Positions 21,290-46,645 of a stretch of 64,000 bases of DNA are shown one piece after another. The stretch spans positions 117,490,001 to 117,554,000 of the forward strand of contig NC_043002.1 of the NCBI RefSeq assembly GCF_006345805.1, written 5' to 3'. The stretch comes from Octopus sinensis. Taxonomy: Eukaryota. How positions within the stretch are numbered: the first letter of the stretch is position 1; every line of letters begins with the position of its first letter. Position numbers and translations under genes: made by a program. Under the pieces are notes generated by a model, which saw only the letters and a list, made by a program, of their open reading frames with translations, had not been told where the DNA came from and ran no database searches.

Positions 21290-22040
21290 ATGAGAAATGA
21301 GAGAGAGAGAGAGAGAGAGAGAGATGAAGGAAGGAGGAAAGGGCTTAGAAAAGGAACAAAGGACAGTGACAGAGAGACAGAAGAGGTGAGAAATGGAAGT
21401 GAAAAAGAAATTGAGAGCTAGAGAAAAAATAAAGGAGAGAATTTGCAAGACTGCACGGAAACAGAACCGTGTAGAGAGGAGGAGAGAAAATGTAAAGAGA
21501 AGAGTATATAGGGACAGAGAAAGGGGAAAAAGAATAAGAGACTGCGAGATAGAGAGGAGAGACAGAGAGAGAATGAGAGACGCAGTGAGAGTGGGTAAAT
21601 ATGTGGAGGGAATGGAGAGAGAGTGGTAGAGAGAGAACACAAGGAAAATAATGTTGTGGAGTGGGAATGGTAAGGCGAAAAGGTAAGAGACGAAGAAAGA
21701 GAGGTAAAGAATAGTAAAGAAGCAGAAGCAGTGGGAGAGAGGATAAGGAAGAGAGCAAGAAATTGAGAGAGTAAGGGGAGTGATGTGGTGCTGCGGAAGA
21801 TGTTGGCATAGAAAAGGTAAGAAAGAAAGACAGGGGAAGAGAAGCGGTAAAGATGGAGGTCAGAGAAGGGGGTGAGATGAACAGAGAGATGGAGAGAGAA
21901 AGACTGATGAAGAAGAAGAAGAAGAAGAAGAAGAAGAAGAAGAAGAAGAAGAAGAAGAAGAAAAGAAGAAGAAGAAGCAGAGAGAGTGAGAGAGAGAAAC
22001 CGAAAGAAAAAGAATGGGGAGAATGAGAGATCTCGGTGAG
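21290..22040. repeat. Polypurine GA-rich tract including (GAA)n at ~21909-21975
   Basis: Directly visible. Confidence 0.9.
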
Positions 22041-22128
22041 TAATGTCATGCGTACGTGACTTGTGCAAAGTAAGTAATTATAAGCATTATCACTGAGAGA
22101 GTGAGTGTGTTTGTTTGTTTGTTTGTTT

Positions 22129-22166
<38 letters not shown>

Positions 22167-22605
22167 GTGTGTGCGTGTGTGTGTGTGTGTGCTATACGGA
22201 TAAATCGTAGTCATAAAGTTCGAGAAAGGCTAAAAGATAGATAGATAGATAGGTATGTAGATAGACAGATAGATAGTTAGTTAGATAGATAGATAGATAA
22301 CTTTTTATTGTAGCCACACAGGGCTAAACACAGAATAAAAATGGATGAAATACAATGTAGAATTTTTTCTTTTCGAGGTGGGATGGGTGGGGCACAAAAA
22401 AAACAAAAAAAAAACACGTTTGATCAATAGGGATCTGTGGGTTGTGTGGTGTATAAAAAAGCAATATATATATATATATATATATATAAGGTTCACAGTT
22501 TAGGTGTAGCCTTGGAAAGAAAAACCTACAAAAAAGACCAAGGTCACCTCAGACAGTTCGAAAATGAACACTTGAGTAAGTCGCCTTACTTCTTGTCTCT
22601 TTTGG

Positions 22606-25600
22606 TTACAGATTTATGCTTAAAATGGTGTCGTCTTTCATACTGACCATTTTTGCCACTTTTACCCACTTTTTATTAAAACATTCGTTCGACAAAGCCT
22701 TCCTCTCTATTCTCATCCTCCTTTTCAAGTGGTGCTTGAAAAAGTTGACGAGAGACTGACCAGAGAGGAAGGTGTTTGTTTGCAGTCCTTTCAAACGCGT
22801 CCACCACACACATTCTTTCGCCATAGCCATCAGCGTAACGAAAACCGTTTTCCCTTCCCGTTTAAAGGAAGGTGGTGGAACAGTATTCACGATAGACTCG
22901 GCCGATAGGCGGGCCCGACCCACACGTGACAACAGCTGTTCGACGAAGGTCCACAGCTCTGAAATATCTGGACACTGCACGTGTCCGTGCAGAACGGTTT
23001 CGTCGCTCTGACCGCATCTCGGGCAGGTCGGTCCGGTGATGGTTTTCGAACCGTGCCTGTAGCTCTTCTCTCGAACAGGTAGTGCGTCTCGATAGCACTG
23101 TCAAGCCAGGGATTTCTGGAAGTCATCTATAGGCCCCGGCCCGAACGTCGTCCTGAACAGGCGGGTTAGGAATTTCTCGTCGACGCCCAGGTTTGCCCCG
23201 AGTTTGTCGTCGGACCTCCCCTCCACTAGTCCTCTATAGAACGCTTTAGTCGTTTGTAAATTGCACAAGTTTGACCCCGGTCGGCAGAGCTGCTGTAGAG
23301 CTTGGCGACACTCTCGGTGCCAATTGCCCAGTTTCGGTCTCTTCTTGATCCACGTTTGCAGTTCGGTCAGTGAGACGAGCTGCGGGAAGGCGCGCCTCAC
23401 AAACGGCGCCCACACCTGTTCACCGTCGTCGATGAAGTTCCAGAGATGCCGCAGTCTCAGAGCATGCCTGCGCATCATCAACCACGGCATGCCCAGTCCT
23501 CCATTCAACGGATGTTGACAGCAAATGGACTTCCTCACCATCGGAACGCCACCCTTCCACAGGAAGCGGAAGAGTATGCGCTCCAGTTTGGTGATGGTGG
23601 CGTCGGGACAAGGCACGGCGGCCAGGCGGCAATCGATGACGGATGCGATGTATGCGTTCGCCACCTCCGCTCGACCTTTTAGAGAGAGCTTTCTCTCGGC
23701 CCATGTTTGGCTGAGAGCGACCACTCTACTCGTGATCCCGTCCCAGTTCTTATCCATTTGGAGGTCCGGACTGAACCAGACCCCGAGCAATTTAACCGGT
23801 CCGTCCGTCCAGCGTCCCACTACTGAGCCGCAGTCGGACGGCATGGGCTTGCTTCTTCAGGTGCCGAGTAGCAAACCCACTGACTTTTCCGGGTTAATCT
23901 TCGCTCCCGTCACCGTTTCGTATTTTCTTAGTGTCTCGCCAATCATCTTGATGTGTTTGTCGCTCGACACTATGACGGTGACATCGTCCGCATATGCCGA
24001 CACGCTCGTCCCGCAACCCAGTTCCCGTGGGATGCCCCTCAGTGTCGCCAGCTTCTGCAGTAGCGGCTCGAGAGTCAATACATACAGAAGCGCCGACAGG
24101 GGACACCCCTGACGGACCGAACGCGTGATGTCAAACGGTTTCGACAGGTGACCGTTCACCCATATCACCGATCGGATGCCGCTATACAAGGCAGCGATCC
24201 AACCGCGGAAGACGGGACCGAAGTCAGCCGCCAAGTACCGATGGTCGACCCTATCGAAGGCTTTAGACTGATCCAAATTGTTCAGCGCCCCACCCATGCC
24301 AGGATCCTTAACTACCCTGTCCACAATGTAGCGCATCAGATGGAGGTTGTCATGTATGGTTCTGCTCGGCACGGCGCATGTTTGAGCCCTGTCGACCAGT
24401 TTACCAATGACAAGCGCCAACCTCTCGGCTATTACTTTGGCCAAAATTTTCAAATCTGCGTTGAGCAGAGTGATGGGCCTGAAATTATCTATAAAATTCC
24501 CCTTGTTTGGGTCTTTCTTCAGCAACGTCACTGCACCTCGGCTCACGAAACCGGGAATTCTCCCGTTTTGTTGCCAGTTGCAGTAGACTGATGCCAAGAG
24601 GTCGCCAAACAAGTCTGTCATTTGACAATACAGCTCGTAGGGTAAACCATCCAATCCAGGCGACTTATCCCTCGCGCAGCCCGCCATCGCATCCCGCACG
24701 TCAGCGGCTGTGATGGGACTTTCACAACACTTCGCTTCTCTTGCCGAGAGCCGCGGCAGGTCGGTCAGGTAGGCACTGAAATCCATCCCGCGTTCCGACC
24801 CACCACTCGCACCAAACAGTCGAGCAAAGTGCTGTTGAAAGGCCTCACACATCCTTTCGGGTTCAAGTAAACTGCATCCCTGTTGATCTATTAGAGACCG
24901 AATGGTGGCTCTGTTGTCACGCTGCGCCTCCGCTACCCGGGCCTCTCGCGCAGCTTCGATCCCTTCGTTCCTTAAGGCACGCATTTTAGCTCTGACGACG
25001 CAACCTTCGTGCTTGGCGTTGAGGTGTTGGTTGAGGGCCATCCTCGCAGCCAGCACGTTGGTTGCGCCGCCAGTGGTAAGTGCCTCTTCTAGTTTCTTAA
25101 CCAGGTTTCCCTCTACTCTATTTCGATCTATCGCTAATTCTTTGCTAAACCTAATTGATTCCGATTTTATTGCCATTTTCAGGGCGTACCACCAGCGGTT
25201 GTTAACGACGGCTCCCGTCAGCGCCCTCTTAATTAACTCGCTAATCCGGTTCCTGTAAACCTGTCGCGCTAAGAGCGACGTGTTCAGTTTCCAGTAACCG
25301 GGACCCTGCCTATGTGTTTTATCTAAGTCGAGCGTACACGTCACAAATTTGTGATCTGTGTAGCTGACTATTTTAAATTGTGGACATCCTACACTATCCC
25401 TATCCGCTGTCCTGCATAGAATTCTATCTAGATAGGATCTCGACGATCCGACGCGGTTTGTCCAAGTCCACGTTGGCACGTTCGGATGGTCGAGTCGGAA
25501 CCTGTCAGACAAATGGAAACGTCTGAGTAGGTCTTTGAGGCACTTACACCCCCTTCTATTCCTATCCATTCCCACATAATCTAGATGCGTGTCCAAGGTA

Positions 25601-26031
25601 GCGTTCCAATCCCCTACTAACAGTAAAGGTCTAGACGTCCCCAGGAAAACCTCTAGACGTCTGAAGAAATCTGCCCGACCCATTAAGGACGGTGCATAAA
25701 CTGCCATCAGACGGAATGCACAACCATTTCTGCCATCCACGTCCAAGACAACCAGCCTACCCTCCGGGTCTAGGAATATTGCTCTTACTTTTACATTTAG
25801 ACTCTTTCGAAAAAGCACCGCGGTACCTCCATCACCCATGTTCGGCAGACAGGGAGAAAAATAAATGTCAAATTGATTGCCAAACATGGACGCGAGGGCC
25901 CGCGGCTTGCTGAGTCTGGTTTCACTGATAGCTACTATATTCACGTTCAGTGACTTGATGTCGTTTAGAAGGTAACCTTGCTTCCAAGCCGACGCCAAGC
26001 CACGCGCATTCACACAACCTAATTTAAGCAT
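22606..26031 (-). pseudogene. Tx1 ORF2: APE endonuclease, reverse transcriptase, C-terminal CCHC; one frame with two internal TGA
   Basis: NARG, ISETR, GDWN, SYLDRI, TDH; SPGLDGLP, FRPITLLNADLKILAK, LDQSKAFDRVDH, QGCPLS, YADD; CPRC..ETVLH..C. Track ORFs 23857-26031, 23101-23844 and 22606-22980 share one frame. Confidence 0.95.
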
Positions 26032-26098
26032 AATTGACGTTTACGAAAATTGTGTTTCACACACAAACATTGGAAGAGACAAGAGGCAAGAGGGAAGG

Positions 26099-27853
26099 TC
26101 ACTTACTCATTTCGAAAGTTTCATTTTTTTCTTCTTCTTTTGTAGCGTCTTTGATGAGGTGTTTGTATAGTTTTTTGGAGAGGTATCGTTGAAACTCGCC
26201 TACCGCATTTGGAAATATTGTTTTCAGTGTATGGTGTTGTGTTTGTGTTATGTGTACAATTTTTATGTGCTTCGGTGGTGTGGTGCGCGGATGATTGTTT
26301 GTCTTAAAGTCATCTTCACAGATGTCCGTGTTGGATGCAATGTAATCCATTAATTTTTTATTTTCTGTGTCTATTGTGTGTGTGGTTTTGCGGGTTCATT
26401 GATTTTTTTATTGTCTAGGGGGATGCTGTCCGGAGTTAAATATCTCCCTGCTTTACTTCCTTGTTTGGTGGGCTTTTTTGATCTTTTCCTTTTACCCCCT
26501 GTGGCTATTTGCCATTCCGTCGAACTTTCGTCGTCCGACGTATCAGAAGAGGGTAAAGGCAAAGCATTTGTGTTAATATGTATGCTTGTAGAAATTGTTG
26601 ATGTTTTGTGCGGTATTTGTGTTGTTATGGTGTTAGGTGTAGAATTTATCTTCTCGTCACTGTTTTCTGTCTTTTTAATTGTCGTCCTGGGTGTTGGTGT
26701 GGTTCTATATTTTGATTCAGCATGATGAATTGGTTGCGTGGTCAACGGTGATTTTGTTGGTACTGTTTCTTTTCTTGGTGATGTTGTTGGGGTTTGTTTG
26801 CTGGTTTGTTGTTTTTCTTCTTGGCATTGTTCCATAATTCAGTGTGTTGGTGTTGGTGTTGGCAACAAGGGTTTTTTTATTTGTTTTCTGATTTGTTCTT
26901 TCTTGTTTTTTCTGTGCTAGAGCGCACTTGGCAATTAAATGCTCTGGGCTACCACAGTTGTAGCATCTAGGCTTTTTGCCTTCTGCCACAACATATAGGC
27001 TTTGCCCATTTTCTAGGTGGATCCTATCGGGTAGGTTCTCGATAGAGGCCCCCTCAATCTGGATGGTCACTACTATTGTTTTTCCACCCCAATTGTCGTT
27101 TAGGTACACGGCGGTTTCTAAAATATTGATCTTTTTCAAATGGTAACAGATTTCCCCTGTTATCCATTTGTTCGGGATCTCGGGGGGTACATTCTTAATA
27201 GTAATTCTACTCACTCTCTGGCCTTTGAAATAAAGTACCATTTTGATATTATCATTTTCCAAAGACTCGGTAGAGTGAGCTTTTGCCACTTCCTGGTTAG
27301 GGAAGCGGACCACTACTGTGTTAAACTGGGGGCCCCAGTTTATATATTCTTTTTTTTTCATTATGTTTTTTAAACATTTTTCTATATCTGTTTTTATAAT
27401 CTGTTCATTTTGTTTTTTGTTTTTTCTTATAATTTTATATATAATTGTCTTATATTCTATTTGTTCCTTTATGTGTTGAGGTGTATGCAGCACTAAATCT
27501 TGCCCACGGGTTGTAAAGAGAGCTCTCGTTTCTATTAGCTCTTCATTTGTAAATGTTAATATTTCTTTCTTCTGACGCTGAGTGTCAGCGAAATTTACTG
27601 GTGTTGTTGATTTTTTTATATTAACATCTTCACTATTAGATAGTTCATATTTATTGTTGTTCTTGTTGTTGTTTTTCTTAATAGTATTCGCGTGAGTTTC
27701 ATTTTTATCATTTATGTTGGTCGTGGTGGTAGTGGTGGTGGTGGTGGAGATGGTGGTGGTAGCAGTAGTAGTCTCGTTGTTGTTGTTGTTAGTGGTGGTG
27801 GTGGTGGTGGTGACAGGGCTGTTACCGCAAGTGGTTGCAGCGTTCACTATCAC
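26099..27853 (-). pseudogene. Tx1 ORF1 (gag-like), frameshifted
   Basis: CX2CX4HX4C knuckle CYNCGSPEHLIAKC; continues in 26371-26835 and 26099-26350 in other frames; ends just upstream of ORF2; poly-Thr/Asn N-terminus. Confidence 0.85.
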
Positions 27854-28170
27854 GTCATTCAGGTTTGCACTTTGCGTGCATACGTTCTTTTTTCTCCGAG
27901 CGTTTCCAGACTGGGAAAATGCTGGTCCATAAAAGAACGCGACCAGCGTTCTACAATAAAATTTCTCGACATTTTTTAATCTCGAGAAGAAAATTACACA
28001 AATTAAATAGGGTTGAAACTGCCCCTAGGGGCGAATTCCTCCCTTGGAAAAGCACTCAAACGAAAGTTGGGTGCCTTACACACCTTATTTACAAACATGT
28101 ACACAAAATATGGGCTATAAATAGTCAAAATAAACGATTACCTTCGGAGCCGAAGTGACAGCACGTCCGT

Positions 28171-28201
28171 AGATAGATAGATAGATAGATAGATAGTTAG
28201 T

Positions 28202-28287
<86 letters not shown>
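28171..28287. repeat. (GATA)n between the two Tx1 copies
   Basis: Directly visible, with TTAGTTAG variant at 28197-28204. Confidence 0.98.
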
Positions 28288-28288
<1 letters not shown>

Positions 28289-29950
28289 GTTTCTTTATTG
28301 GCCACACAGGGCTGCACACAGATGGGACAAGTTACAAGGTAGAGCTTTTCTTTTGGGGGGATGAAAAAAAAACAAAAAACAAAGGAAACAAAAAAAAATC
28401 CTTGCTACATTCACCCATCTTTTTTTAAAACATTCGCTAGACAAAACTTGCCTCTCTACTCTCACTTTCCTTTTCAAGTGGTACTTGAAGAAGTTGATGA
28501 GAGATTGACCAGAGAGGAAAGTGTTTGTCTCCAATCCTTTCAGACGCGTCCACCAGATACATTCTTTCGCCATAGCCACAAGGATGATGAAAATAGCTCT
28601 TCCTTCCCGTTTGAAGGAAGGAGGCGTGACAATATTGACGATAGACTCAGCTGATAAACCGACTCGTCCCACACGTGACAGCAGTTGTTCGACATAAGCC
28701 CACAGGTCGGAAATTGTTGGACACTGCACGAGTGCGTGCAGAACGGTTTCGTCGCTCTGACCGCATCTCGGGCAGGTCGGCCCTGTGTTTCTCGAGCCGT
28801 GTCTGTAGAGCTTATCCCGAATGGGTAGCGCTTCTCGGTAGCACTGCCAGGCCAGGGATCTCTGGAAGTTGTCCATGGGTCCTGGCCCGAAAGTCGTCCC
28901 GAACAGGCGGGTCAGGTATTCCTCGTCGACGTCCAGGTTCGCCCCGAGCTCGTCGTCGTACCTCCCCTCCACTAATCCCCTATAGAATGCTTTGGTTGTG
29001 ATGAAGTCACTCAAGGTCGACCCGGGACGGCAGAGTTGCTTGAGAGCAACGCGACACTCGCGGTGCCATTCGCCCTTCCTCTGCCTCTTTTTGATCCACG
29101 ACTGCAGTTCGGTCATGGAGACGAGTTGCGGGAAAGTGTGCCTCACAAACGGCGACCACACCTGTTCACCGTTGTCTACGTAGAGCCGGAGATGTCACAG
29201 TCTCAGCGCATGTCTGCGCATCATCAACCACGACATGCCCAGTTCTTCTTTTAACAGGTGTTGACAGCAAATGGATCGCCTGACCATCGGGACGCATCCT
29301 TTCCACAAGAAGCGAAAGAGAATGCGTTCTAGTTTGGTGATGGTAGGGTCGGGACAAGGCACGACCGTCAGGCGGTAGTAGATGACGGACGCGATGTACG
29401 TGTTCGCCACCTCCGCCCGACCTTTTAGGGACAGTTTCCTCTCGGCCCATTGCCGGGCGAGAGTGACCACCCTGCTCGTTATCTCGTTCCAGTTCTTCTC
29501 CACTCGGAGGTCCGGACCAAACCAGACCCCGAGCAACTCAACCGGGTCGTCGGTCCAGCGTCCCACGACGGAGGCGCTGGTGGACGGCATGGGCTTGCTT
29601 CTCCAGGTGCCTAGTCGCAAGCCCACTGACTTTTCCCGGTTGATTTTCACTTCCGTCACCGCTTCGTAGTTTTTCAGTGTCTCGCCGACCTGCTCGATGT
29701 GCTCATGGCTAGACACTATTACGTTGACGTCGTCCGCGTATGCTGACACGCTCGTCCCGCATCCCAGTTCTCGCGGGATGCCCCTCAAAGTTGCCAGCTT
29801 CCGCAATAATGGCTCGAGAGTCAATACGTATAGAAGCGACGAGAGGGGGCATCCCTGACGGACCGAACGTGCGATGTCGAAGGGTCTCGATAGATGTCCA
29901 TTTACGCGAATTACCGACGGGTGCCTCTGTACAAAGCGGCTATCCAGCCC
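28288..29950 (-). mobile_element. Second Tx1-clade copy, 5'-truncated, diverged subfamily
   Basis: RQGCPLS, YADD, LSLKGRAEVAN, CPRC..ETVLH; 3' end GCCCTGTGTGGCCAATAAAGAAACT-(TATC)n; many substitutions versus copy 1. Confidence 0.92.
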
Positions 29951-30126
29951 AAAACCATATAAAATAAATATACATACAAACCCACATACATACACATGCG
30001 AATAACCATATATATACATATACGTATGCCCATGCATATACATACAGACACACACACACACACATACATATAAATACACAAGCACATATATATACACATA
30101 TACATACACATACATATACACACATC

Positions 30127-30199
<73 letters not shown>

Positions 30200-30266
30200 T
30201 CGGGGTTACCACAGTAAATAAAGTACTCAATACATAGCAGAGTAAATTAATTTATTTTATAGAAGG

Positions 30267-30317
30267 AGCTTCTACAGGACTAGAACTGTTTCATTCAAAA
30301 GAAATCATCAGGAAGCT
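30267..30317 (-). ncRNA. Type-I hammerhead ribozyme motif
   Basis: Exact reverse complement of 30314-30364. Confidence 0.8.
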
Positions 30318-30364
30318 TCCTGATGATTTCTTTTGAATGAAACAGTTCTAGTCCTGTAGAAGCT
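30314..30364 (+). ncRNA. Type-I hammerhead ribozyme motif
   Basis: AGCTTC-CTGATGA-T(TTC-TTTT-GAA)T-GAAA-CAG-TTCTAGTC-CTG-TA-GAAGCT: stem I 6 bp, intact core, GUA triplet. Confidence 0.8.
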
Positions 30365-30629
30365 CCTTCTATAAAATATATAATATATATATATAATATA
30401 TATAATATATATATATATATTATATATACACATACATACAAATACACATACACATACACGCAAACACACGCACATATATATATATATATATACACATATA
30501 TATACCTACATATACACACACACACATATATATTTTTTTTCTCCTCATCTTCCTCCCTTATTTTATTTTTATTTTTATTTCCTTTTCTCTATTTGTCTCT
30601 CCCCCCTACTCCAAGCACATAGAGACACG

Positions 30630-30661
<32 letters not shown>

Positions 30662-31703
30662 CCCACACACACACACAAAAAAAAACACACGTACACACAG
30701 AGACGCGCACACACACATCTCCATAGTACAGTCATACAAAGTAGATGAATTTCTTAGCTGACCGTCTTCAAAATCATAAGGGTTTAATTTATGACCTGCC
30801 TACACACCGACACACATTCAGTGACGCTAGAATAGAGAAACGCCAAAAGTTCCTAGAACTCCCCTTGGGATTCCAGTCGGCCAAAGGGGATCCTTCTACC
30901 ACTCCCCACTCCCTTCCTTTCTATCTCGTTACCCACGGATACAAAGGCACACACTCACACACTCACACACACACTCACACGCACACTCATACACATACAC
31001 ATACACACATGTTCTCTCACTCATTTCCTCCTCATCCACTTATACATATGCATATATCTTTCTCTACATGCACATATATATACATATATATACATACACA
31101 AATACACACATGCGTACATACATAAATGTACCCACGTTCACATAAACATATGCATAATTATGCATATATAAACACACATGTATAAACGTACTTCTGTACA
31201 CATAAGCACACATAAACATCTGCCCGCTTATATAAACGCATATGCACATATAAAACCATATGTGCATATAAACATACATACGCATATATACGCATCCATA
31301 CGCATATAAATACATATATGCACACATGCATGCATACCTGTATACATAAATGCATACATGCATATACATACATACACACATATATACATACATGCACATA
31401 CATATGCATACATAAACATATGCACATATAAATACACATAGGCATATCTACACACGTACACTCACACACACTCACACACTGACACACACACACACCTATA
31501 TATACATATAAATGTCTACAAGTCCATACATTTACACACATACACATATATATATATATACATATACATATATATATATATATGTAGGTCCCGGGTTGAT
31601 TCGGGGTTAACCACAGTAAATAAGGTACTCAATACATAGCAGAGTAAAATTAATTTATTATATAGGAGCTTCTACAGGACTAGAACTGTTTCATTCAAGA
31701 GAA

Positions 31704-32700: not shown

Positions 32701-33057
32701 TCAATCGGGTTGCCGGGTGGGTCTGTAATGTTTGTAGTTTGCATAAATTTTGTGCATACAGTTTGGGGAGTGTTCCGAGATCTTGTTGAGGAGAGGGCCT
32801 TTGGCGAACAAGATCTCCAGGCTTTCAGAAATGCAAAGGTCGTAGCAAGTATGGCCTCCAGTGTAAAAACGCGCCCTCTTTAGTAGTCTCCACTTGATCT
32901 TGAAGGGGATGGAGTTCCTTTTTAGGTGCCAGATATGGGCGGTGAGAATAGTCTGGTTAGATTTGTCAGGTCGCCGGAACGAATGTGTGTGGGCGTACCA
33001 GCGAGTCTTAAAACTATTTGACGTCATTCCGATGTACGATTTTCTAGGAACTGTTGG
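32701..33057 (-). pseudogene. PLE GIY-YIG endonuclease, C-terminal portion
   Basis: KSYIGMTSNSFKTRWYAHTHSFR...LTAHIWHLK...IKWRLL...LCISESLEIL...LLNKISE...CMH. Confidence 0.85.
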
Positions 33058-33455
33058 CGTTTCTCTATTCTAGCGTCACTGAATGTGTGTCGGTGTGTAG
33101 GCAGGTCATAAATTAAACCCTTATGATTTTGAAGACGGTCAGCTAAGAACTTCGTCTACTTTGTATGACTGTACTATGGAGGTATGTGTGTGCGCGTCTC
33201 TGTGTGTACGTGTGTATTTTTTTGTGTGTGTGGGGGGATGTGTGCGTGTGTGTGTGCGCGCACGTGTCTCTATGTGCTTGGAGTAGGGGGGAGAGACAAA
33301 TAGAGAAAAGGAAATAAAAATAAAAATAAAATAAGGGAGGAAGATGAGGAGAAAATATATATATGTGTGTGTATATGTGGGTATATATATGTATATATAT
33401 ATATATGTGCGTGTGTTTGCGTGTTTGCATGTATGTGTATTTGTATGTATGTATA

Positions 33456-33546
<91 letters not shown>

Positions 33547-33966
33547 GTGTGTATATGTATGTGTATGTATATGTGTATATATATATGTGCTTGTGTATTT
33601 ATATGTATGTGTGTGTGTGTGTCTGTATGTATATGCATGGGCATACGTATATGTATATATATGGATATTCGCAAGTGTATGTATGTGGGTTTGTATGTAT
33701 ATTTATTTTATATGGTTTTTCATTTATCTACTTCTTCCCTCAACTTAATAACAACAACAACAAAATGACTAAAAGCAATAGTCTTCTAATTTACCTAAAA
33801 CTCTATTCAATTATTCTATTTATTCATTTATTTACTTTATCACTGATTCTTTTGACAACTCCCTTAAGAACGATAGTTTGCGATCTGCTTACCCAAAAAA
33901 CGTCCCCCACCACCACCCCATTAAATCTGCCTAAAGGTATAAATACCAGACCTTATTTTGACAGCC

Positions 33967-34475: not shown

Positions 34476-35143
34476 CGTGGTTTCAGCTCAGAGCTGCGGC
34501 CATGCTGGAATACTGCCGTTTTGCTACACGGTAATTGAGAGCCTCCTCTAATATGTGGCATTTGGTGAATAAGGGAGTTTGATGTCGCTACCTACATTTG
34601 CACCTCTTGCCATGAGGTAGGTGCATCTGGGACTCTCGACAGGAAGAGGTCCAGTTTTGATTTGAAAACACCTACATCCACTTTGTGTAGTTTCCTCAGG
34701 CTCTTTGGGAGAATATTAAAAAGCTGTGGACCCCTGAAACCCAGGCTGTTGCAGTAACTGTTCCTGAAGCGCGATGGCATTGCTGGGATCTTCGGCACTG
34801 TGAAGTGTCGATGCGTTGCCAAAATTTGGCACAATTCCTTCCAGGATCTTCCAAATGTATATTACTGCATACCTCTCCCGCCTTCGCTCCAGGGAGTAGA
34901 GTCTTGGCTGTTTCAGCCTTTCCCAGTAGCCGAACTGTTGCAATGAGACGATCTTCTTTTTGAAGCTTCGCTGGATTGCTTCAAAGTCCGCTGTTAATTT
35001 TACACTGTTGGGTGACCATAGCTGGGAGCAGTAATCCAGGCGGCTGAGGACGAATACCTTCCAGAGGACCATTATTGTTTCTTTCTCCCTGGTTCTGAAC
35101 GTTCTCAGGATCCATCCAGCTAGTCGTCTGCACTTTGTCGCCA
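34473..35143 (-). mobile_element. CR1-like LINE 3' fragment
   Basis: WILRTFRTR, LDYCSQLWSP, LYSLERRRERY, GPQLFNILP; tail CCAGCATGGCCGCAGCTCTGAGCTGAAAC; TA repeats at both ends. Confidence 0.85.
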
Positions 35144-36046
35144 TATATAAACGTAATAGATGCATTCCTGTTATATATTACACAGACTTGAAACGTACGT
35201 ATTAAATGATTTCAAGATATTTGGTTCGACTTCATTCCTACAGCTACACACACACACACACACACGTATACACATATGTACACACAAACACGCACACACA
35301 AGCACAGACATACAAACGCACGCACATATATGTATACACACACGCACATACACACGCACGCACACACATATATGTATATATATATATGTGCATGTGCTCT
35401 TTGCTTCATTCACTGGTTTCAGCCATTGGATTACCACGTACTGGAACGCAGCCTTCAAGTTTTGTTACTGTTGTTGTTATTGTTGTTTCGGTTGATTACA
35501 TACTTATTCTATTGACCAAGCATAACAGATGTTCACCATTACCTCTTTCCGCTTTGTCTTACCTCTTTCTCTCTCTCTCTCAACCTCTATGTCTTTCTCT
35601 GTTTGTTTGTCTATCTGCCTCTCTGTCTCTCTGTCTCCCTCTCTCTCTGTCTCTCTCTCTTTCTCTGTCTGTCTCTCTCTCTCTCCATGCTCACCTTACC
35701 AACGTACATCAAACACCTTTATCAGTGTTACATCGAAGACTAATTGTATATCGGCTGATGTGAAATTAACTCCTGAACACTACTGCCGCTACCTTCGCCA
35801 CCCTACCACCACCACCACCACCACCACCACCACCATAACCACAACAACCACAACAACAACAATAACAGCGACAGCCACGACAACCACGACTCCCCACAAG
35901 CACTGCCAGCATCTCCTCACACCATCACCAAATGACTCCTTAGCATCACTAGTAACAACAGCAAACAAGGCGGAACACTCACACACGAAGAAGTAAGAAA
36001 ACAAAAGGAAAAGACAACCGACTACACCACCACCACCACCACCACC

Positions 36047-41199: not shown

Positions 41200-41955
41200 A
41201 AATATTGGTTTCAAATGTTGGCACAAGGCCAGCAGTTTCGGGGGAGTGGGTAAGTCGATTACATCGACCCCAGTGCTCACTCAACAGGTACTTATTTTAT
41301 TGACCCCGAAAGGACGAAAAGCAAAGTTGTCCTCGGCGGTATTTGAACTCAGAACGTCAAGATGGACGAAATGATGCAAAGCATTTTACTCGGCGTGTTA
41401 GCGATTTATTTTCTACTCTAGGCACAAGGCCCGAAATTTTGGGGGAGGGGGTCAGTCGATTAGATTGACCCCAGTACGCAACTGGTATCGACCCCTAAAA
41501 GATGAAAGGCAAAGTCGAACCTCGGCGGAATTTGAACTCAGAACGTAGCGGCAGACGAAATACTTATTTCTTTACTAACCACAAGGGGCTAAATACAGAG
41601 AGGACAAACAAGGACAGACACACGGATTAAGTCGATTGAATCGACCCCAGTGCGTAACTGGTACTTATTTAATCGACTCCGAAAGGATGAAAGGCAAAGT
41701 CGACCTCGGCGGAATTTGAACTCAGAACATAACATTCTTACCCCAGTGCGTAACTGGTACTTATTTAATCGACTCCGAAAGGATGAAAGGCAAAGTCGAC
41801 CTCGGCGGAATTTGAACTCAGAACATAACATTCTTACCCCAGTGCGTAACTGGTACTTATTTAATCGACTCCGAAAGGATGAAAGGCAAAGTCGACCTCG
41901 GCGGAATTTGAACTCAGAACATAACGGCAGACGAAATACCGCTAAGCATGTCGCT
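41200..41955 (-). mobile_element. Family-A SINE cluster including a perfect 96-bp-period triplication
   Basis: Units starting at ~41645, 41740, 41836 are identical. Confidence 0.92.

Positions 41956-46193: not shown

Positions 46194-46645
<452 letters not shown>

What the first reader, a model, noticed from the sequence alone, without database searches (positions are those of the whole stretch)
22235..29950. Tx1-clade LINE family apparently specific for (GATA)n, with a variant-marked target duplication
Seen: two diverged Tx1 copies lie in tandem, and all three intact junctions are in (GATA)n. Both 3' ends read AATAAA-short linker-(TATC)n, with no poly(A). The interruption TTAGTTAG occurs in both flanks of the full-length copy (22277-22284 and 28197-28204). 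Known: some Tx1 families are sequence-specific, e.g. Kibi/Koshi for TC/TTC repeats and Keno for U2 snRNA. Inference: the shared variant marks a target-site duplication of up to ~50 bp in a pre-existing GATA tract, implying an APE with tetranucleotide-repeat specificity. I cannot tell whether this family is already catalogued.
Basis: partly seen in the sequence, partly recalled or inferred. Interest (0 to 1): 0.75.

Follow-up and report, generated by a model that had tools for sequence, protein, structure and literature searches.

The report
LINE family that targets GATA repeats
Two copies of a jumping-gene family sit head to tail in a GATA simple repeat, and most sampled copies elsewhere in this genome have that repeat at both ends, likely because the element's own cutting enzyme recognises it; repeat-seeking elements of this kind are known, but I did not find this repeat described as their target.

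Summary
Confirmed. The window holds a full-length, broken L1/Tx1-type LINE (22300-28169, family A) and a clipped relative (28288-29950, family C) in (TATC)n/(GATA)n.

The repeat is the target, not just a tail:
- 83 of 85 heads and 52 of 64 5'-truncated junctions abut TATC; background is 5 of 3740.
- The similarly common (TATG)n flanks 1 of 64.
- 7 copies lack TATC on both sides.

Four related families share the target, with thousands of copies.

The TTAGTTAG variant is rare (67 genome-wide) and likely marks a target duplication. The exact block is 33 bp, not 50, and is atypical: in 61 of 70 informative copies an early variant is not duplicated.

New here: full-length heads carry inherited variants up to about 10 nt into the upstream TATC, so the RNA likely starts inside the repeat. 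Family A is rarely truncated (28 of 30 exceed 1.5 kb), unlike family C.

Endonuclease specificity is inferred, not shown. It works like Kibi/Koshi; membership is untested. The scan noted a similar GATA-targeting LINE before in other genomes.

The parts
22235..22299 (-). (TATC)n tract at the 3' flank of copy 1, with variants TAAC TAAC, TGTC, TACA, TACC
22267..22299 (-). 33-bp block identical to 28187-28219; likely target-site duplication, contains TTAGTTAG (22277-22284)
22300..28169 (-). Copy 1: full-length L1/Tx1-type LINE, family A, 5870 bp, inactivated; ends AATAAA (22304-22309) + AAGT, no poly(A)
22606..26031 (-). ORF2: APE endonuclease (about 25330-26031), RT (Pfam match 23878-24507), C-terminal zf-RVT; two premature stops (about 23857 and 23101) and a short in-frame deletion
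26099..27972 (-). ORF1 with one CCHC zinc knuckle (26924-26968); frameshifted here, open as a 631-codon stop-to-stop frame in L118
28170..28179 (-). Likely TATC-like leader that belongs to the element's own 5' end (inferred from inherited variants in other copies)
28170..28287 (-). Middle (TATC)n tract: 3' flank of copy 2 and 5' flank of copy 1; contains TTAGTTAG (28197-28204) within the block 28187-28219
28288..29950 (-). Copy 2: 3' part of a family C element (part of RT, zf-RVT), with about 400 nt of 3' UTR deleted near 28398; ends AATAAA (28294-28299) + GAAACT
29951..30858 (.). Segment duplicated in inverted orientation at 33042-33719; its edge coincides with the clipped 5' end of copy 2

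Best explanation
This is a group of L1/Tx1-type LINE retrotransposons whose copies sit in (GATA)n/(TATC)n microsatellites, and they likely get there because their APE endonuclease nicks the GATA strand of an existing tract and reverse transcription starts from that nick.

Shown: the domain layout; TATC at both ends of most sampled copies, whatever the truncation point; a fixed 3' junction phase (TAT in 65 of 69); no poly(A); frequent head-to-tail stacking; four families with a conserved endonuclease hairpin motif.

Inferred: (1) the nick is on the GATA strand; (2) a short UAU(C) at the RNA 3' end pairs with the primer; (3) the second nick falls a variable distance away, usually giving a short duplication but sometimes 11-65 bp, and 33 bp here; (4) the RNA begins at least about 10 nt inside the upstream repeat, so the cDNA end can pair with the target to join the 5' end; (5) each insertion leaves a tract on both sides, so later copies stack in tandem.
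For: Heads: 30 of 30 and 83 of 85 distinct heads have TATC upstream. Truncated family C copies were sampled by an exact 3' pattern in genome order: 52 of 64 5' junctions have at least 3 TATC units; background 5 of 3740; TATG 1 of 64, CATA, TA and CA 0 of 64, although (TATG)6 starts are as common as (TATC)6 starts (34,656 vs 27,443). The two sides agree: 45 both, 7 neither, 12 one side, p=0.002, so the element brings no obligatory long tail. Duplications with non-TATC letters: L162 13 bp into unique DNA, L141 18 bp in (ATT)n, L146 11 bp, L189 32 bp, L145 about 65 bp. Markers matched in 7 of 41 true pairs vs 2.2% of mismatched pairs for truncated copies. The upstream variant TGTCTA goes with one head haplotype in 12 of 13 vs 1 of 72. 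The hairpin motif W[TS]NR[VIS]GSSR is kept in families A-D and differs in the sister group. In Tx1L, TRAS1 and R1 the endonuclease itself is specific (PMC1919474, passages).
Against: No biochemical test and no empty allele. 12 of 64 truncated 5' junctions are not in TATC. For full-length copies, marker sharing is not above control (2 of 29 vs 4.8%; 0 of 58 by a stricter test), so a long duplication is not the rule. Two arrays carry the TAACTAAC motif twice with no element between (L205, L206), and L189 has a third copy of its marker, so variant blocks also repeat without insertion. The leader does not explain family A's full-length bias, because a family C-like copy (L042) has the same kind of head and family C is mostly truncated.
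Confidence: 0.72

Rival explanations
1. Targeting is real but is set mainly by RNA-DNA pairing: a loosely specific endonuclease nicks many sites, and only those where the RNA's TATC ends can pair are completed.
For: The 3' junction starts TAT even in off-target sites (65 of 69). Truncated 5' junctions often show TCT or TCTA microhomology (by eye). Heads carry TATC-like leaders. Tail-target pairing is proposed for RTE and reported to help I, R1Bm and R2Ol (PMC6007223 section 18).
Against: Several copies have only 3-8 nt of TATC-like sequence at the 3' end (24 of 81 family C ends have under 8 pure nt), so the tail may be too short to select 4-nt repeats alone. (TATG)n, which also offers TAT, is almost unused. 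Endonuclease swaps set the target in TRAS1/SART1 (passage).
Confidence: 0.2
2. The element makes the repeats itself: TATC is a slipped 3' tail plus a TATC leader, and there is no target preference.
For: Full-length heads do carry some inherited TATC-like bases. Family D ends alone precede 2583 of the 27,443 counted tract starts.
Against: Truncated copies have no leader, yet 52 of 64 abut TATC. 7 copies have TATC on neither side. L162 duplicates a tract end plus unique DNA. Many tracts have no element end beside them (window 46516-46645; L205, L207-L211, L213).
Confidence: 0.05
3. For the TTAGTTAG pair only: the original tract already held two variant blocks, or the match is chance, and copy 1 landed between them with a short or no duplication.
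For: 2 arrays carry the motif twice without an element. Most copies have short duplications. The 17 nt next to the head differ from the 3' flank at 4 sites.
Against: The motif is in at most about 0.25% of tracts (67 vs at least 27,443) and in 0 of 119 other 5' flanks. The match starts exactly at the 3' junction, as a duplication should.
Confidence: 0.2

Closest known systems
Kibi (TC)n and Koshi (TTC)n of teleosts (Tx1 clade; PMC4494074 and PMC3812793 passages)
   Same: APE-type LINE inserted specifically in a pyrimidine-rich microsatellite
   Different: Target unit is TATC/GATA; host is probably an octopus (inference); relationship to Kibi/Koshi not tested because no reference sequences were available
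Crocodilian Tx1 families on (TTCC)n or (TTTC)n, e.g. Tx1-1_Crp, Tx1-2_AMi (PMC4494074 passage)
   Same: Tx1 elements with tetranucleotide targets, so a 4-nt target is not new for the clade
   Different: Different unit; I saw no account of a target-like 5' leader or of long marked duplications in the passages read
Keno (U2 snRNA-specific Tx1)
   Same: Two U2-flanked metagenome elements (L280, L281), which I read as Keno-like, fall in a neighbouring clade of the RT tree (FastTree support 0.917)
   Different: Target is a microsatellite; no Rfam match above a gathering score in 21500-31000; the Keno label is my inference from the U2 flank
Waldo (ACAY) and Mino (AC) of the R1 clade; Dong (TAA) (PMC3812793 passage)
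   Same: Microsatellite-specific LINEs, one with a 4-nt unit
   Different: Other clades and other repeat units

Membership tests
L1-group / Tx1-clade LINE | Two ORFs; ORF2 = APE + RT + C-terminal zinc domain | tested here: met
   Pfam; best PDB matches are exonuclease III-type and L1 endonucleases
L1-group / Tx1-clade LINE | ORF1 with a CCHC zinc knuckle (feature recalled, not from a call) | tested here: met
   zf-CCHC E=8e-4, just under the curated cut-off
Tx1 clade | RT groups with Tx1 references rather than L1 proper | tested here: inconclusive
   groups with U2-flanked loci (0.917) and near a protein named 'Transposon TX1 uncharacterized 149 kDa protein' (P0022; node 0.934); midpoint root, no curated Tx1 or L1 references in the tree
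Target-specific Tx1 (Kojima criterion) | More than 20% of flanks are one sequence type (PMC4494074 methods passage) | tested here: met
   81% of truncated 5' junctions, 98% of heads
Kibi/Koshi lineage | Target (TC)n, (TTC)n, (TTCC)n or (TTTC)n | tested here: not met
   Target is (TATC)n; (TC)n at 1 of 64 junctions
Kibi/Koshi lineage | RT monophyly with Kibi/Koshi | not testable with these tools
   No named Kibi or Koshi sequence was returned; the 2004 paper is not held
Keno | Insertion in U2 snRNA genes | tested here: not met
   flanks
Target-specific Tx1 | The endonuclease itself cleaves the target selectively | not testable with these tools
   Needs biochemistry

The most novel reading that the evidence does not exclude
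An independently evolved GATA-specific Tx1 lineage whose RNA begins and ends in target-like TATC, so that both junctions are made by pairing with the tract. In family A this would give almost only full-length 6-kb insertions, and the group as a whole would reshape a large share of the genome's GATA tracts by splitting and duplicating them.
Probability: 0.25. Interest if true: 0.65.

Novelty: new member of a known kind. Interest (0 to 1): 0.42.

Why it matters
It adds (GATA)n to the short list of microsatellite targets of APE-type LINEs. A 2013 review calls the mechanism of such targeting 'not well understood' (PMC3812793 passage). This group is a good test system: thousands of copies, four families with one target, intact APE domains, and a nearly untouched control repeat (TATG)n one base away. 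The contrast between mostly long family A and mostly truncated family C bears on what controls 5' truncation, which matters for retrotransposon-based gene insertion. GATA microsatellite markers in this genome will often be flanked by these elements.

Tried and rejected
- A BLAST-type search with copy 2's 3' end returned nothing, probably because very common words are skipped; an exact pattern was used instead.
- TAACTAAC as a family tail or head feature: rejected, 0 of 119 other 5' flanks.
- A pair of TAACTAAC motifs as a general mark of insertion: rejected for the two close pairs fetched, which lie in one array with no element between.
- L167's apparent long duplication is a minisatellite and L165's is a local tandem copy; neither is counted as a target duplication.
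- Distant relatives in metagenomes: my repeat scan listed no TATC/GATA run in 53 of 53 loci. Their best segments are mostly 22-49% identical and short contigs break at repeats, so this says little. The flanks of the 39-44% sister group (P0003-P0017) could not be seen.
- Expression: no RNA holder on record was listed; no evidence either way.
- Empty-allele test by laying contigs: not obtained, so the question stays open.
- Rfam: nothing above a gathering score in the region.
- Structure prediction not run; it would not separate the rivals.
- Rows dropped: L184 (wrong coordinates); L137, L161, L173, L178, L201 (5' junction not reached or internal); L039 (false 3' end); L056 (near-identical flanks to L055).
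Full report
Observation. The sequence shows two minus-strand LINE copies separated and flanked by (GATA)n. Copy 1 spans 22300-28169. It has ORF1 with a zinc knuckle and ORF2 with APE, RT and zf-RVT. ORF1 is frameshifted and ORF2 has two premature stops. Copy 2 spans 28288-29950, is 82% identical to copy 1 and lacks about 400 nt of its 3' UTR. Its 5' end coincides with the edge of a local inverted duplication (29951-30858 vs 33719-33042), so it was probably clipped later. Both 3' ends read AATAAA, a 4- or 6-nt linker, then TATC. TTAGTTAG is at the stated coordinates. The genome is 2.72 Gb with about 30 large contigs. That it is an octopus is my inference from size, repeat content and the scan's notes on similar elements; no call names it.

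Families. Fetched copies fall into four related families with 80-89% identical ORF2 regions and a shared head.
- A (copy 1): 193 exact 3'-end matches.
- B: no count made.
- C (copy 2): 1828 exact 3'-end matches.
- D: 2583 ends followed directly by six TATC units.
One exact head pattern has 165 matches. All are lower bounds. None of 179 distinct 3' ends in my loci (52 A, 12 B, 81 C, 34 D) is followed by poly(A), and 163 start with TATC.

Target or tail? Heads are preceded by TATC in 30 of 30 and 83 of 85. Heads alone are ambiguous, because the repeat could be part of the element. The deciding set is 5'-truncated copies. I took 70 of the first 100 listed of 1828 family C ends, all on contig C1 and chosen without regard to length. 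One was lost to a coordinate slip and five had no usable junction. Of the remaining 64, 52 have at least three TATC units at the 5' junction, and 40 of 52 do when copies within 200 nt of another copy's end are left out. Background in the rest of the window is 5 of 3740. (TATG)n is as common in the genome but flanks 1 of 64. The two sides agree (45 both, 7 neither, 5 only 3', 7 only 5'; p=0.002). The seven copies with neither show that the element brings at most a few bases of tail; 65 of 69 3' flanks start with TAT. Junctions were placed by alignment and are uncertain by some bases in the T-rich UTR, so a -45 to +15 window was used.

The duplication. The motif TATCTATCTAACTAACTATCTATC occurs 67 times in the genome, two of them here, against at least 27,443 tract starts. 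The exact shared block is 33 bp, begins at the 3' junction and ends 17 nt before the head; its marker is in 0 of 119 other 5' flanks. I put the duplication reading at about 0.8. Against it, two arrays hold the motif twice with no element between. Other copies give duplications with informative letters: 13 bp into unique DNA (L162), 18 bp (L141), 11 bp (L146), 32 bp (L189, whose tract has a third copy of the marker) and about 65 bp (L145). L162 was seen by eye and not caught by the marker tests. Truncated copies share markers more often than mismatched pairs (7 of 41 vs 2.2%); full-length copies do not (2 of 29 vs 4.8%). In 61 of these 70 copies an early 3' variant is not found upstream, so duplications are usually short, or are blurred by later slippage.

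A target-like leader. The ten bases upstream of the apparent start vary with the head haplotype. TGTCTA goes with one haplotype in 12 of 13 heads and with 1 of 72 others; TGTTTA-T(T/C)GA goes with another in 4 of 4. The loci have different outer flanks, so these bases travel with the element. The RNA therefore likely starts inside the TATC tract, and its cDNA end could pair with the target (inference). This would also account for part of the 17 unmatched bases in the window.

Length contrast. Of the first 30 family A ends in genome order, 28 extend beyond 1.5 kb (two with internal deletions). Of 36 copies chosen by similarity, 32 reach the head. Of 69 family C copies, 57 are under 1.5 kb (one of these, L173, continues beyond a deletion). 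The cause is unexplained.

Placement. The nearest proteins are one 71% match and an unnamed group at 39-44%. In a FastTree RT tree of 92 sequences, the four families form one clade, sister to that group, near two U2-flanked loci that I read as Keno-like. No curated Tx1, Kibi, Koshi or L1 reference was in the tree, so clade membership rests on domain layout and these neighbours. The endonuclease hairpin motif is conserved across A-D and differs in the sister group; published work links this hairpin to specificity in TRAS1 and R1.

Literature. Eight full-text searches listed no paper whose title or abstract start, or the passages I read, describes a GATA/TATC-specific LINE. What I saw of each paper:
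- PMC4494074: passages; figure 3 and supplements could not be seen and may list further targets.
- PMC3812793: passages.
- PMC4640811: passages.
- PMC1919474: passages.
- PMC3124438: passages, nothing relevant.
- PMC6007223: abstract and section 18.
- PMC13282606: first third of the text and a supplement search; 80 L1-Tx1 families are listed, with no TATC or GATA hit in the supplement.
- Kojima and Fujiwara 2004 and Christensen 2000: not held, known only through citing passages.
Repbase and Dfam could not be searched, so the families may be catalogued there. Two earlier notes of this scan describe a similar element on other DNA; they are not independent support.

Verdict. This is a real, well-supported microsatellite-specific LINE group with a target I did not find in print. 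It works like Kibi/Koshi and is not shown to belong to them. It is a new member of a known kind; interest 0.42.

Noticed in passing
L215-L244 vs L135-L204: Family A is rarely 5'-truncated (28 of 30 exceed 1.5 kb), while family C with a similar head is mostly short (57 of 69 under 1.5 kb). Unexplained.
   Followed up: partly
L055, L061 vs L100, L051: Family B shares the first 450 nt with the other families but has an ORF1 body that does not align at DNA level, which suggests head exchange or strong conservation.
   Followed up: partly
L282:9202-9356: A Tx1-like element in a metagenome contig is followed about 2.3 kb downstream by a U1 snRNA gene at the contig end; a possible U1-associated family.
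   Followed up: no
L280:4675-4885 and L281:5815-5977: Two Tx1-like elements are flanked by U2 snRNA, as expected of Keno.
   Followed up: partly
window 29951-30858 and 33042-33719: A local inverted duplication, 91-95% identical, has an edge that clips copy 2; a 143-bp near-perfect hairpin lies at 30243-30387.
   Followed up: partly
window 41644-41925: A tandem array of a 96-bp unit, 2.9 copies, 100% identical.
   Followed up: no
window 32701-33069 and 34716-35177: Open frames that look like fragments of other retroelements (GIY-YIG-like and RT C-terminal-like; judged by eye).
   Followed up: no
L180, L188, L093/L094: Stacks of 3-5 truncated copies in one TATC tract; some neighbours have the same truncation point, which points to local tandem duplication as well as repeated insertion.
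   Followed up: no
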